A stretch of 48,295 nt of DNA from a virus (taxonomy: Duplodnaviria > Heunggongvirae > Uroviricota > Caudoviricetes): the IMG/VR virus record IMGVR_UViG_2874933748_000005. One strand, written 5' to 3'. The position numbers were made by a program. Positions 6,001-9,000 of this stretch are shown in pieces (the stretch's first letter is position 1; each line of letters starts with the position of its first letter).

Positions 6001-9000
6001 AAGCGGTGTAAGTGAACTGCAGTTGCCATGTTTTACGGCAGTGAGAGCAGAGATAGCGCTGATGTCCGGCAGTGCTTTTGCCGTTACGCACCACCCCGTC
6101 AGTAGCTGAACAGGAGGGACAGCTGATAGAAACAGAAGCCACTGGAGCACCTCAAAAACACCATCATACACTAAATCAGTAAGTTGGCAGCATCACCAGC
6201 CTTCTTGAGGCTACCACCTGTTTTCAGGTGTCATTCAGACGTGATTTGCCCCAGATTGGGAAAGCACGCTTTTTTCTCAGCTATCGTCCTCTTATTTTGC
6301 CGTTACATTTCTTTTTGCATTCTAATGATTAATTTACAATAATAATATCGGTAATTATTGAGTAATAATAAATTAATTATTGCAAATGTAATTTAATTCC
6401 ATCTTCGCGTTATATTCCAATCTTTAATCTCCGCATGGAACAAGTTGCATGCGTGACTATATTAAGACGACTTATAACCACCAAAACATTTGCTTTGCAA
6501 GCAAAAACAGTGACCATTGACTCTAAGAAAATTCCGATCTATTGTTAGGGTCATCAAAGTTACTTAACAGTATTCCGAAATGAAAATACAAAGCAAGCTA
6601 ATTGTCTTATTAAACATTATTATTGCATTTATATTATTTGAGCTTTTAGCTCAAAAATTTGGTTTGAGTACATTATTTTAAAGCAAGATAAACAATATCG
6701 GGCACTCTAGTTTTTATAATTAACAATTAAACGTCCATAAAATGTTATTTACTTTTCTTCGCTATTGTCATATCTTAATATAGTGGCTTACGCCACTCTA
6801 CTTTCATCACATTTTGTACGTTTATGTACTCGCCATGAAGCTCTTTCATGGCGATTTTTTATTCTTAATCCAAGAACATACTCCCTACCTATAGCAAAAT
6901 CACTTTTTTAACAAAAGAATAACGTATTTAGGTAATCATTACGAATTTACCCTATAGGTGCTACTGGCCATTCAATATCCGGTGCAGTTGATGTATCAAC
7001 ACGGTTCAGCAACACCCGATACTTTTTCCAAGCTTCCAGCAACAAGGTTTCTTTCTCCGTTGCGATCTCCAGATCCACAGCATCCTGAAGCGGCGCTATA
7101 TGCTCACTGGCTACCTGCATCAGGCTGTTTTTTGTTTCTTCCGCCTCCCGGATCCGGAACAGTTTTTCTGCTTCCGTATCCTTCACCCAGGCTGTGCCGT
7201 TCCACTTCTGAAACTCCCCTTCCGGGGATAACCAGGTGACATTTTCCGGTAATGAGCCGAGTTCAGAAATAAATAACGCGTCGCCGGAAGCCACGTCATA
7301 AACCGTTTTACCCCGATGATCTTCAACGAGATGCCACGATGACTCATCACTGTTGAAAACAGCCACGAAACCAGCCGGAATATCTGGCGGTGCAATATCG
7401 GTACTGTTTGCAGGCAGACCTGTATGAGGCGGAATATATGCGTCACCTTCACCAATAAATTCATTAGTTCCGGCCAGCAGGTTATAAATTTTTATGGTCC
7501 GTGCTTGTTCACTCATTCTGAATGCCATTATGCGAGCCTCACAATATAGTTAAATGCGATGTTTTTGACGGTGTTTTCCGCGTTACCAGCAGCGTTAACG
7601 GTGATGGTGTGTCCATGTGAACCAATCGCAACAGAGTGCGTATGAGCACCAATACCGACAGTATGCGCGTGTGCACCCGCAGATGCTGCTGTGCCGGACA
7701 GTGAGTGTGTATGGTTTCCTTCTGAAGATGATTTACCTACCCATTGGGAGGTGCCACTGGTTAATGAGCCACTGATACCAACCTGATTAGTCCCGCTAAC
7801 TTGAGTACTCCCTGCCGGAAACATTCCAGTAGGTTGACTCCCGCTATTCGTTCTGGGCCCAGTCTGACTATGTTGGTGGGCCCCAGCTGAACTTGTAGAG
7901 CCGCTCAGACTGTGCGTATGCGCCCCGGTGTTATTCGTGGATTTAGTGCCGTAATCAAACGACGATGTGGTTTTCGTCCCCAAATCCGTACTGGATGCGC
8001 TGGCGCTGTGGGTGTGCGATTTAATGCCATCCTGTTCCTGAGACAATACGGCACGACCACTGGCGGGCTTGCCCTTAATCGTCCAGCCACGCATATCAGG
8101 GATCACGCCTGACGGATAAGCGGCTGCAAGTTTCGGGTAAGCAGATTTGTCAAAAGTCTGCCCCTGCATCAGGGCATAACCAGACGGAACGGTATCTGAT
8201 GGCCACGGGATTGGTGCACCGACTGGATAAAACTCTGCAGGAGGATGAGCCGAGGTGTAAAGCTGCGCCCACGGCGACCAGTTTGCGTCGGTCGTATCCC
8301 GTCGTGAACGAATAAATGCCGGAGCATGAGCACCGCTTGTACCACTCCAGCCGATGAGTAACTCACCTTCGCCAACGGCTGTCATCCCTTTCAGGTGAAT
8401 GATATTTCCATACGCTGTTGGATATCCGTTGTTATACACCTCGTATAACTCAAGACCTGCTGCCCCCTGCGTATTGTCTGTCAGCGCGGCTACCCGACCT
8501 TTTGAAGCCAGATTAACTGATGATACTGCTGTTCCACCTGACGGTAGCGCCCCGATCTCTGATGCCGTTGGCTTATTTCTGGAGTTATAGTCCCTTCGCC
8601 AGCCAGGTGAATAATCTGTTCCGTGATTAATATAGGTAAACTGGGCGTTGGTTGTTCCGCCACCGCTGGATGTGGTCGGAGTGGTAATGCGGATCGTCAT
8701 CGCTGACTTTATCCCCATTACTTCAATGACAGCTCCGGCGAGATGAATATTACCGCAGCCAGTATCAGTAATGATTTTATTATTGCCATAAGACCAGGAA
8801 CCCTTGCACATCCAGTATGGATGGTTAAATGCTCCCTGAGAATCCAGCCACTCGATAAACTGTGCAGTCGTCCAGTTTCCTGTTGTTGTGCTTACTGACC
8901 CACCGAAGGCACGGCAGGCACCAATATTTTTCGTAAAGGTGTCTTTGCCAGGGATATCCGCACCGTTCTGATCTTTCTGCAGACGTTTCTCAGCATTGTC

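What the first reader, a model, noticed from the sequence alone, without database searches (positions are those of the whole stretch)
6198..6946. 750-bp AT-rich ORF-free spacer between IS1 and the tail-fibre genes
This is the position of the lambda b region, where prophages usually carry cargo, yet no ORF of 60 aa or more is present. The only coding candidate is a 33-aa hydrophobic peptide (6580-6681) without a convincing ribosome-binding site. The region could be a decayed cargo locus, a regulatory or H-NS-silenced region, or encode a small RNA or small membrane peptide.
Basis: seen in the sequence. Interest (0 to 1): 0.4.

Follow-up and report, generated by a model that had tools for sequence, protein, structure and literature searches.

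The report
Hidden small-protein gene beside tail fibres
The "empty" AT-rich spacer next to the prophage tail-fibre genes carries an unannotated 33-codon gene for a small membrane protein related to E. coli YncL, followed by a very conserved small-RNA-like terminator element, so it holds small prophage cargo that gene callers miss.

Summary
Window 6198-6946 lies between the IS1 end (6197) and the tfa stop (6947), has 31.5% GC and no ORF of 60 aa or more.

It is not empty, though. It has three parts.

1. 6198-6282 is the outer 85 bp of a relic phage attachment-site arm. IS1 cut it: IS1-free relatives have a 1.5-kb intergenic region with half of tRNA-Ser serU and 278 bp of chromosome next to this arm.

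2. 6580-6681 (+) is a real gene.
- Its 33-aa product matches only NCBIfam YncL (E 1e-5, below the curated cutoff).
- It aligns without gaps to K-12 YncL (0 of 20,000 shuffles reach the score).
- It shows purifying selection (10 synonymous vs 7 non-synonymous changes, p 6e-5).
- It is intact in 78 of 78 copies.

3. 6783-6862 (+) is an 80-nt element with a 5' hairpin, an A/U-rich single strand and an intrinsic terminator. It is the most conserved part of the spacer (5/80 vs 130/489 differences). It is a candidate 3'-end sRNA, or simply the gene's 3' UTR.

The module travels with tfa in three prophage contexts and is present, unannotated, in about 15% of complete E. coli genomes. Expression is untested. 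I file it as a new member of known kinds, of moderate interest.

The parts
5430..6197 (-). IS1 (768 bp). It forms the left boundary of the finding. Its right junction is fixed across strains, while its left junction varies.
   Evidence: Terminal repeats and insA/insB ORFs. Annotated as IS1A in L002 and L063. No target-site duplication: the flanks are cacccaatt and agccttctt. The left junction differs between L002, the window and ETEC1746.
6198..6282 (.). Outer 85 bp of a roughly 195-bp phage attachment-site arm, a relic att site truncated by IS1.
   Evidence: The same 85 bp lies at prophage ends in about 500 other genomes (searches compared). In E. coli 042 and in IS1-free relatives the arm abuts a 62-nt 3' half of tRNA-Ser serU plus chromosomal flank. 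In EH031 it abuts the uspF-side host flank.
6283..6400 (.). Extremely AT-rich zone of mosaic joints. Homology to other prophage contexts starts here, at window 6321, 6369 or 6401.
   Evidence: Query start points 124, 172 and 204; alignment.
6401..6477 (.). Conserved block of unknown function upstream of the small gene.
   Evidence: 1-5 differences per 20 nt against the divergent copy L009, compared with 9-12 in neighbouring blocks. Its palindrome CGCATG...CATGCG is not kept in the ydfJ-site copies.
6517..6545 (+). Sigma-70-like promoter candidate, TTGACT-17-TATTGT, 35 nt upstream of the small gene.
   Evidence: Consensus scan gives 9/12. The -35 hexamer is invariant and the -10 is TATTGT or TATCGT in divergent copies. 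The total number of promoter-like hits in the region is not above shuffles (5 vs 3.7).
6580..6681 (+). Unannotated gene for a 33-aa single-pass small membrane protein, a YncL-family paralogue: MKIQSKLIVLLNIIIAFILFELLAQKFGLSTLF.
   Evidence: The only NCBIfam hit is NF000537 YncL: E 1.3e-5, 25 bits, cutoff 35. BLASTP against K-12 YncL gives 11/28 identical, 18/28 positive and no gaps. Score 60, not reached by 0 of 20,000 shuffles. pN/pS is 0.17 and 0.05 in this frame only. Intact in 78/78 copies. The other small ORFs are broken in relatives.
6748..6776 (+). Weak promoter-like pair read by eye, TTTACT-17-TATCTT. It would start an RNA at about G6783.
   Evidence: Read from the sequence. The -35 is kept in L009. 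The scan did not flag it (8/12). Inference only.
6783..6862 (+). Conserved 80-nt sRNA-like element. It has a 5' hairpin (6783-6796), an A/U-rich single strand (6797-6815), a small hairpin (6816-6829) and an intrinsic terminator (6830-6854) with a T-run (6855-6860). It is either a candidate 3'-end sRNA or the structured 3' UTR of the small gene.
   Evidence: Terminator scan. MFE -26.2 kcal/mol, z -6.95. 5/80 differences vs 130/489 in the flanks against L009, p 1.6e-5. Homology in L005 starts at about 6780. One-sided changes C6787T, A6795G and G6840A keep pairing on the + strand. No compensatory pairs. No Rfam family matched.
6947..7528 (-). tfa (tail fibre assembly), convergent with the small gene. 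The module travels with it.
   Evidence: Annotation in relatives. ORF list.

Best explanation
The spacer is the surviving, tfa-proximal half of a 1.5-kb b-region intergenic stretch. It contains a compact self-contained cargo unit (a 'moron') on the strand opposite the tail genes.

Shown:
- A 33-codon gene (6580-6681) encodes a single-pass small membrane protein homologous to the E. coli stress-response protein YncL. It is under purifying selection and is intact in every copy seen.
- 100 nt downstream lies an 80-nt, almost invariant, strongly folding element that ends in an intrinsic terminator (6783-6862).
- The unit travels with tfa in at least three prophage contexts: with an AraC-family regulator next to lambda Int or IntS, at the Qin/ydfJ site, and next to sitABCD.
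- It occurs in about 15% of complete E. coli genomes and in viable phages (mEp332, PhiR70_1, ev099). No record lists a feature under it.

Inferred:
- It is transcribed rightwards from a sigma-70-like promoter (6517-6545) in the lysogen, independently of late transcription.
- The terminator stops this transcript before it runs antisense into tfa.
- The conserved 3' element is released, or separately transcribed, as an Hfq-type sRNA. Alternatively it only stabilises the mRNA.
- By analogy with YncL, which depolarises the membrane sublethally and condenses the nucleoid when produced (PMC12542507), the peptide inserts in the inner membrane and modulates membrane potential or stress state to the benefit of the lysogen or phage.

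The left 85 bp are non-functional debris: the outer part of a fossil att arm. An IS1-mediated adjacent deletion removed the rest, along with the promoter region of the neighbouring YdeO-like AraC regulator, which is also frameshifted.
For: Coding:
- NCBIfam YncL is the only family hit out of 18,950 (E 1.3e-5). Three other variants score 22.5-27.1 bits. The control peptide YohP does not hit the model, and K-12 YncL scores 68.6 bits.
- BLASTP against K-12 YncL gives an ungapped alignment over residues 1-28, pairwise E 2e-7. 0 of 20,000 composition-preserving shuffles reach its score.
- Window vs L009: 10 synonymous and 7 non-synonymous changes (Fisher p 6e-5). Window vs L010: 5 and 1 (p 9e-4). 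The other two frames show ratios of 0.4-5.
- The start, frame and stop are kept despite a 5-nt deletion at the stop in L009. 78/78 copies are intact. All other small ORFs are broken in relatives.

3' element.

Linkage and spread.

Relic att and IS1 deletion.
Against: - There is no Shine-Dalgarno sequence before the ATG, whereas K-12 yncL has AAGGTGG.
- The YncL model score is below NCBI's curated cutoff (25 vs 35 bits).
- The promoter calls are weak consensus matches, no more numerous than in shuffles.
- There are no expression data.
- The RNA element shows no compensatory base-pair changes.
- Its conservation could partly reflect recombination. L042 is a recombinant with a breakpoint near 6850.
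- Some lineages have a weakened U-run, CUUUCUU.
- All copies are close relatives confined to E. coli. There were no hits in 185,579 species-representative genomes, so the comparative power is limited to three or four lineages.
Confidence: 0.72

Rival explanations
1. The spacer is non-functional, H-NS-coated junk: decayed b-region DNA left between IS1 and tfa. On this view the 33-aa ORF and the hairpins are by-products of AT-rich composition.
For: - The ORF length is unremarkable for this composition: 82% of shuffles have an ATG-ORF of at least 33 aa.
- There is no SD sequence.
- No annotation exists in any record.
- The left end is demonstrably debris.
- The neighbouring AraC gene is dead.
Against: - There is frame-specific purifying selection.
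- The homology to YncL is specific and is not reproduced by composition-matched shuffles or by other hydrophobic peptides.
- 78/78 copies are intact.
- A conservation island coincides exactly with a folded terminator element.
- The module is retained in three unrelated cargo contexts and in viable phages.
Confidence: 0.1
2. The gene is real, but the 80-nt element is only its 3' UTR and terminator. It would also serve as a conserved linker at which tail-fibre modules recombine. On this view there is no trans-acting sRNA.
For: - It lies on the same strand, 100 nt downstream of the stop, with no strong separate promoter.
- There is a recombination breakpoint near 6850 in L042.
- There is no covariation.
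- There is no better-than-background complementarity to the ORF33 or K-12 yncL initiation regions, or to anything in the window.
- No Rfam family matches.
Against: - Conservation covers the 5' hairpin and the single-stranded stretch, not only the terminator. It exceeds that of the coding sequence itself: 6% vs 17% divergence.
- The 100 nt between the stop codon and the element are hypervariable.
- L005 keeps the element after losing the gene.
- The architecture is that of Hfq-type sRNAs.
Confidence: 0.4
3. The region is a type I toxin-antitoxin locus. The hydrophobic 33-aa peptide would be the toxin and the nearby small RNA the antitoxin.
For: - The peptide is small, hydrophobic and single-pass, like TisB, ShoB and ZorO.
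- YncL overproduction depolarises the membrane (PMC12542507).
- The missing SD could mean tightly limited translation.
- A structured small RNA lies next to it.
Against: - The RNA element is on the same strand and downstream, not antisense or divergent.
- RNAduplex between its single-stranded part and the ORF33 initiation region gives -8.3 kcal/mol, worse than the background mean of -11.0.
- No - strand terminator is predicted over the ORF.
- The in-ORF hairpin 6637-6655 is not conserved.
- There is no PADLOC hit and no toxin-family hit.
Confidence: 0.07
4. The spacer is the long upstream regulatory region (promoter and 5' UTR) of the neighbouring AraC-family (YdeO-like) regulator, now cut off by IS1.
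For: - In IS1-free relatives the AraC gene is the next gene leftwards and is transcribed away from the spacer.
- It is AT-rich, like many horizontally acquired regulator promoters.
- There is a - strand promoter-like site at 6771-6742.
Against: - 6369-6946 occurs without any AraC gene in the ydfJ-site and sitABCD contexts, always next to tfa.
- A fossil att site with 340 bp of chromosome lies between the spacer and the regulator in intact relatives. The two therefore have separate origins.
- The - strand promoter-like hexamers are not conserved in L009.
Confidence: 0.05

Closest known systems
YncL (b4598), the 31-aa stress-response small inner-membrane protein of E. coli K-12 (NCBIfam NF000537)
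   Same: - The size is similar (33 vs 31 aa).
- Both have a polar N-terminus with a basic residue, followed by one hydrophobic helix.
- They share the pattern M-x-[IV]-x-S-[KR]-x-[IV]-V-L-[LI]-N ... A ... L-F-x-L-[LI]-[AS]-x-[KR]-F-G, aligned without gaps.
- YncL is the only family hit.
   Different: - Identity is only 39%, and the score is 25 bits against the curated 35-bit cutoff.
- It is prophage-borne beside tfa, instead of chromosomal between patD and ortT.
- It has no SD, whereas yncL has a strong one.
- It has a different 3' region.
- Its function and expression are untested.
Lambdoid phage 'morons' and tail-gene-linked conversion genes (lambda lom and bor; cor of phi80/N15; T5 llp) (from general knowledge)
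   Same: - It is a small accessory gene with its own promoter-like and terminator signals.
- Its composition differs from the flanking phage genes.
- It sits at the end of the late operon next to the tail-fibre genes, and it moves with them between phages.
   Different: - It is far smaller than any of these (33 aa), with no signal peptide or lipobox.
- It is on the opposite strand to the late genes.
- No exclusion or virulence phenotype is known.
Prophage-encoded Hfq-dependent sRNAs of pathogenic E. coli (PasA-D, Esr41, AgvB/AsxR) and 3'UTR-derived sRNAs
   Same: - It is intergenic in a lambdoid prophage and about 80 nt long.
- It has a 3' stem-loop with a poly-U tail and a single-stranded A/U-rich stretch just upstream.
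- It is restricted to Escherichia.
- IS009 lies nearby, as reported for PasB flanks (bioRxiv 10.64898/2026.05.13.724894).
   Different: - The sequence is unrelated. The PasB probe complement is absent from the window.
- Esr41 scores 15.6 bits against a gathering score of 102, and it is encoded on SpLE1 (PMC5286369).
- There is no expression or Hfq-binding evidence for the present element.
IS1-mediated adjacent deletions (from general knowledge)
   Same: One IS1 end stays fixed at 6197/6198, while the other junction lies at different depths in different strains. There is no target-site duplication.
   Different: Nothing unusual. This explains the truncation, not the content of the spacer.

Membership tests
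YncL family (NCBIfam NF000537, equivalog) | HMM score at or above the curated cutoff (35 bits) | tested here: not met
   25.0 bits, E 1.3e-5. Other variants score 22.5-27.1 bits. K-12 YncL scores 68.6 bits. So this is a homologue or paralogue, not an equivalog.
YncL family (NCBIfam NF000537, equivalog) | Significant, full-length, ungapped sequence similarity to YncL that composition alone does not explain | tested here: met
   BLASTP gives 11/28 identical and 18/28 positive, pairwise E 2e-7. 0 of 20,000 shuffles reach score 60 (maximum 45). Eight other small hydrophobic peptides score 18-29. YohP does not hit the YncL model.
YncL family (NCBIfam NF000537, equivalog) | Chromosomal synteny patD-yncL-ortT | tested here: not met
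   K-12 locus shown. The present gene is always beside prophage tfa.
YncL family (NCBIfam NF000537, equivalog) | Inner-membrane localisation, stress induction and membrane depolarisation on production | not testable with these tools
   Known for YncL from PMC12542507. No data exist for this paralogue.
Protein-coding gene (as opposed to a chance ORF) | Excess of synonymous over non-synonymous change in the ORF's frame only, and the ORF kept open in all copies | tested here: met
   pN/pS 0.17 (p 6e-5) and 0.05 (p 9e-4). 78/78 copies intact. Competing ORFs are broken.
Protein-coding gene (as opposed to a chance ORF) | Recognisable ribosome-binding site | tested here: not met
   The sequence upstream of the ATG is GTTACTTAACAGTATTCCGAA. 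No SD is present in any lineage.
Hfq-type trans-acting sRNA | Rho-independent terminator with a U-run at the 3' end, and a single-stranded A/U-rich stretch upstream | tested here: met
   An 11-pair stem followed by TTTTTT. Predicted fold with z -6.95. The U-run is interrupted by C in two lineages.
Hfq-type trans-acting sRNA | Structure supported by compensatory base changes | tested here: inconclusive
   0 of 20 pairs show double changes. Three one-sided changes keep pairing on the + strand. There is too little diversity to decide.
Hfq-type trans-acting sRNA | Discrete transcript, Hfq binding and identified targets | not testable with these tools
   No transcriptome data are available. No target stands out within the window or at yncL. 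The sequence does not appear in the main text of the papers searched; supplementary files were not searched.
Known Rfam families (MicC, Esr41, Aar, and all 4227 models) | Score at or above the gathering threshold | tested here: not met
   The best score in the spacer is MicC at 22.8 bits against a threshold of 90 (E 1.3). Esr41 scores 15.6 against 102. Across the whole window only IS009 and a tRNA pass.
Type I toxin-antitoxin system | An antisense or partially complementary sRNA that pairs with the toxin mRNA | tested here: not met
   The RNA element is on the same strand. Duplex energy is -8.3 against a background of -11.0 +/- 3.4. No - strand terminator is predicted.
Relic phage attachment site (6198-6282) | The sequence recurs at prophage/host junctions next to a partial tRNA or a host gene end | tested here: met
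   The arm abuts the serU 3' half plus K-12-like flank in L001 and L004 (97% over 340 bp). In L061 it abuts the uspF-side flank. In the window the tRNA part itself has been deleted by IS1.

The most novel reading that the evidence does not exclude
The unit may be a dual-output, tail-fibre-linked conversion module. One short transcript would give both a membrane-depolarising YncL-like peptide and a trans-acting 3'-end sRNA. Together they would reprogramme the lysogen, for example towards stress tolerance or dormancy, or towards exclusion of phages that use the same receptor or need the membrane potential for DNA entry. Its tight linkage to tfa/stf would then reflect a function tied to that tail fibre's host range. 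A prophage copy of a core small stress protein that also feeds into the host sRNA network would be a new type of lysogenic conversion. Core yncL mRNA is itself a target of the Rac prophage sRNA KilS and of RprA (PMC8175672; bioRxiv 10.1101/2025.09.11.675593).
Probability: 0.15. Interest if true: 0.65.

Novelty: new member of a known kind. Interest (0 to 1): 0.42.

Why it matters
- Small proteins and sRNAs in prophage "spacers" are missed systematically. This one lies, with no feature listed under it in any record shown, in 827 of 5,426 complete E. coli genomes and in viable phages.
- It gives YncL, a poorly understood small stress protein, a mobile paralogue. That is a natural experiment on what such peptides are good for.
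- It provides a ready test system, since the mEp332 record lists E. coli K-12 MG1655 as its host.
- It shows that "ORF-free" b-region DNA next to tail-fibre genes should not be read as empty or decayed without a codon-substitution test.
- The fossil serU att site documents how these phages picked up chromosomal and island DNA.

Tried and rejected
**Known RNA families and sRNAs**
- Rfam at permissive E-values on 5900-7300, and at gathering threshold on the whole window. Nothing significant fell in the spacer.
- PasB identity. It seemed likely because IS009 flanks PasB. I rejected it because the complement of the PasB probe is absent even with 3 mismatches.
- Esr41 as a positional analogue. Rejected because Esr41 is on SpLE1.
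- Full-text search for the RNA, DNA and peptide sequences. No papers matched.

**RNA structure and targets**
- Covariation in the RNA element. Diversity is too low and no compensatory pair was found.
- Target search by RNAduplex against the ORF33 and K-12 yncL initiation regions and the whole window. Nothing rose above background.

**Wider distribution**
- Species-representative genomes (GTDB) searched with the 23-mer RNA core and with a degenerate ORF33 pattern. Both gave 0 hits.
- Metagenome and viral scans returned only close relatives.
- tblastn of the peptide against phages gave no match. This is uninformative, because mEp332, which matches the spacer at 99.2%, was not returned either, perhaps because BLAST's low-complexity filter was on.
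- HMMER against 1.84 billion representatives found only the identical protein and one frameshifted 43-aa variant.
- Pfam, PHROGs, PADLOC and PDB gave no hits.

**Other candidate features inside the spacer**
- Other small ORFs (37, 35, 31, 48 and 26 aa). In the divergent copies the 37-, 35-, 31- and 48-aa ORFs lose their start or gain stops. The 26-aa ORF keeps its start but loses its stop in L009 and shows no coding signature.
- The hairpin inside the ORF (6637-6655), the palindrome at 6433-6454 and the 11-nt inverted repeat 6457-6467 / 6773-6783. None is conserved in divergent copies.
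Full report
**1. The observation**

The region is as described. IS1 (768 bp, insA/insB on the - strand) ends at 6197. The stop codon of the tail fibre assembly gene tfa (6947-7528, - strand) follows at 6947, and stf is 7528-10617. The 749 bp between them have 31.5% GC against about 50% in the flanks.

No ORF of 60 aa or more lies inside. This is not statistically unusual: shuffles give a median longest ATG-ORF of 43 aa, and 82% of them contain one of at least 33 aa. The 33-aa hydrophobic ORF is at 6580-6681 (+) and has no Shine-Dalgarno sequence.

**2. Where this lies**

The left part of the window is mlaA, yfdC, tRNA-Arg(CCT) at 2575-2649, and intS. Two IS3-family fragments follow, then an AraC-family gene (4672-5423, -), IS1, the spacer, and then tfa, stf and the tail genes.

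The viable phages mEp332, PhiR70_1 and ev099 have the same order with lambda-type xis-int in place of intS. So the spacer is in the b-region position, between the tail-fibre genes and the integrase/att end.

The AraC protein is YdeO/GadX-like. In this window it is dead. It has a 1-bp deletion in a C-run near 5004, and the IS1 end lies 15 bp upstream of its start codon.

**3. The spacer is only half of the original**

IS1-free relatives are strain TUM9757 (L001) and the three phages. They have about 1505 bp between tfa and the AraC gene. IS1 in the window replaces about 740 bp of this.

There is no target-site duplication. The right IS1 junction is the same in all strains, but the left junction differs:
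- L002 keeps 206 bp upstream of the AraC gene.
- The window keeps 15 bp.
- ETEC1746 has lost the AraC gene entirely.

This is the pattern of nested IS1-mediated adjacent deletions.

The deleted stretch contains 340 bp that are 97% identical to the K-12 chromosome: the 3' 62 nt of tRNA-Ser(CGA) serU plus 278 bp downstream of it. A roughly 195-bp AT-rich segment follows directly, and its last 85 bp are window 6198-6282.

The same segment sits at the prophage/host junction of a serU-site prophage in E. coli 042, and of a prophage beside uspF/ompN in EH031. I take that location to be the Rac/ttcA site from general knowledge of K-12; no ttcA feature is annotated in that locus. Hence 6198-6282 is the outer end of a fossil att arm. 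About 500 further genomes match only these 85 bp (searches compared).

**4. The tfa-proximal module**

Window 6369/6401-6946 recurs at 94-99% identity downstream of tfa in three settings:
- prophages at the ydfJ (Qin) site, in roughly 500-550 genomes (the 829 that carry the module, less the roughly 280 that match the whole spacer);
- prophages carrying sitABCD;
- a more divergent form (83% over 6736-6945) in strain GF47 and one viral contig.

It therefore belongs with tfa, not with the AraC regulator.

Against the divergent copy the conservation is blocky. Differences per 20 nt are:
- 1-5 in 6380-6477;
- 9-10 in 6478-6517;
- 2-6 in 6518-6697;
- 11-12 in 6698-6737;
- 0-5 in 6738-6857;
- 6-10 in 6878-6937.

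**5. The 33-aa ORF is a real gene of the YncL family**

*Family match.* Its product hits a single NCBIfam model out of 18,950: NF000537, 'stress response membrane protein YncL' (E 1.3e-5, 25 bits, residues 1-28 of 30). This is below the curated cutoff of 35. Three further variants score 22.5-27.1 bits. K-12 YncL scores 68.6 bits. The unrelated small membrane protein YohP does not hit the model.

*Pairwise similarity.* I read K-12 YncL from the genome as MNVSSRTVVLINFFAAVGLFTLISMRFGWFI. BLASTP gives an ungapped alignment with 11/28 identical and 18/28 positive residues. Its BLOSUM62 score of 60 is never reached in 20,000 composition-preserving shuffles (maximum 45).

*Substitution pattern.*
- Window vs GF47: 10 synonymous and 7 non-synonymous changes, pN/pS 0.17, Fisher p 6e-5.
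- Window vs the sit-type copy: 5 and 1, ratio 0.05, p 9e-4.
- In the other two frames the ratios are 0.4-5.

*Integrity.* The GF47 copy has a 5-nt deletion at the stop codon that recreates TAA in frame. All 78 copies collected from the window, genomes, phages, viral contigs and metagenomes encode an intact 33-aa protein, in four variants. Of the other small ORFs, four are interrupted or lose their start codon in relatives; the 26-aa ORF loses only its stop in L009 and shows no coding signature.

*Against.* There is no SD. No gene caller in RefSeq or GenBank lists a feature there. There is no Pfam, PHROG, PADLOC or PDB match.

A sigma-70-like promoter candidate, TTGACT-17-TATTGT (6517-6545), lies 35 nt upstream. 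Its -35 hexamer is invariant.

**6. The 80-nt element**

On the + strand, 6830-6854 forms an 11-pair stem followed by TTTTTT.

Together with the hairpin GTGGC-TTAC-GCCAC (6783-6796), a 19-nt A/U-rich single strand and a small GUAC hairpin, it folds at -26.2 kcal/mol (z -6.95). The reverse strand folds as well but has no U-run.

It is the best-conserved part of the spacer: 5/80 differences against 130/489 in the flanks (Fisher p 1.6e-5), and better than the coding sequence. In the ETEC strain 2014EL-1345-2, homology to the module begins at about 6780, right at the first hairpin.

Variation inside stems is one-sided. It keeps pairing on the + strand only (C6787T and A6795G each give a U.G wobble pair) or on both strands (G6840A). 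There is no compensatory pair.

One viral contig is a recombinant with a breakpoint near 6850. So part of the conservation could be due to recombination.

A weak promoter-like pair, TTTACT-17-TATCTT (6748-6776), would start the RNA at G6783. This is read by eye only.

No Rfam family matches. The element is not PasB or Esr41. The papers searched do not contain the sequence in their main text. No complementary target stands out in the window, at ORF33 or at K-12 yncL.

**7. Interpretation**

The simplest reading is a compact moron on the strand opposite the late genes: promoter, yncL-like small membrane protein gene, and a conserved structured 3' end with a terminator that prevents antisense transcription of tfa.

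The 3' end may also yield an Hfq-type sRNA. I give about even odds between that and a plain 3' UTR.

YncL is induced by heat shock and in minimal medium. When produced, it causes sublethal membrane depolarisation, nucleoid condensation and the phage-shock response (PMC12542507). By analogy, the prophage peptide would modulate membrane potential. Whether this serves the lysogen's stress tolerance, phage exclusion or something else is unknown.

I considered three other readings and rate them low, for the reasons listed under rivals: a type I toxin-antitoxin locus, the upstream region of the AraC gene, and pure junk.

**8. Spread and novelty**

The ORF region is in 827, and the RNA region in 829, of 5,426 complete E. 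coli genomes, with up to three copies per genome and none on plasmids. It is in 4 phage records and 49 viral contigs. It is in none of the 185,579 species-representative genomes.

I found no description of a prophage YncL paralogue or of this RNA. It is a new member of known kinds: a small stress membrane protein family, a phage moron, and a candidate prophage sRNA. Nothing here is categorically new, and expression remains to be shown.

Noticed in passing
window 6987-7185 (-): A full-length match to Rfam IS009 (RF02111; 218 bits against a gathering score of 117) lies entirely inside the tfa coding sequence, on the coding strand. This 'sRNA family' appears to model a conserved part of a tail fibre assembly gene.
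   Followed up: partly
window 4672-5423 (-) and 5430: The YdeO/GadX-like AraC-family regulator is inactivated twice. It has a 1-bp deletion in a C-run near 5004 (170-aa and 116-aa ORFs instead of 247 aa), and the IS1 end lies 15 bp upstream of its ATG.
   Followed up: yes
window 5430-6197; L002 3233-4000; L063 7660-8440: The IS1 right junction is identical in different strains, while the left junction removes progressively more DNA. 206 bp upstream of the AraC gene are kept in one strain, 15 bp in the window, and the AraC gene is gone in a third. This is a nested series of IS1 adjacent deletions.
   Followed up: yes
L001 3551-3890 (also L006, L007, L008); deleted in the window: The viable phages mEp332, PhiR70_1 and ev099 carry, in their b region, 340 bp of E. 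coli chromosome: the serU 3' half plus 278 bp of downstream flank, 97% identical to K-12. It sits next to a phage att arm. This is a fossil attR, which suggests an ancestral aberrant excision from the serU site.
   Followed up: partly
L001 ~3880-4085, L004 ~2880-3086, L061 ~2380-2586: The same att arm of about 195-205 bp ends prophages at the serU site and beside uspF/ompN (probably the Rac/ttcA site). The shared sequence begins at TTTCGAGACCG, which occurs both in the serU anticodon arm and in the host flank in EH031. One integrase family may use both sites.
   Followed up: no
window 2575-3968: tRNA-Arg(CCT) is followed by intS, and intS lies next to the b-region cargo and the tail fibres. 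The lambdoid prophage therefore uses a CPS-53-type integrase at argW, with the same IS3-fragment and AraC cargo that lambda-Int phages carry. This points to an integrase module swap at the IS remnants.
   Followed up: partly
L042 (IMG/VR contig), aligned to window 6378-6946: This copy is sit-type to the left of about 6850 and GF47-type to the right. It is a recombinant whose breakpoint lies in the terminator of the conserved RNA element.
   Followed up: no
L009 2024-2886: In strain GF47 the divergent copy of the module is flanked on both sides by tfa pseudogene fragments in the same orientation. This suggests a duplication or recombination involving tfa.
   Followed up: no
P0003 (43 aa): One database protein is a frameshifted variant of ORF33, identical for about 26 residues and then in a different frame. 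It is the only relative besides the exact sequence among 1.84 billion cluster representatives.
   Followed up: no
literature: PMC8175672; bioRxiv 10.1101/2025.09.11.675593: Core yncL mRNA is reported as a RIL-seq/TRIC-seq partner of KilS (the 3' UTR of kilR in the Rac prophage) and of RprA. Prophage RNAs already touch the yncL node. Whether they also pair with the prophage paralogue was not examined.
   Followed up: no
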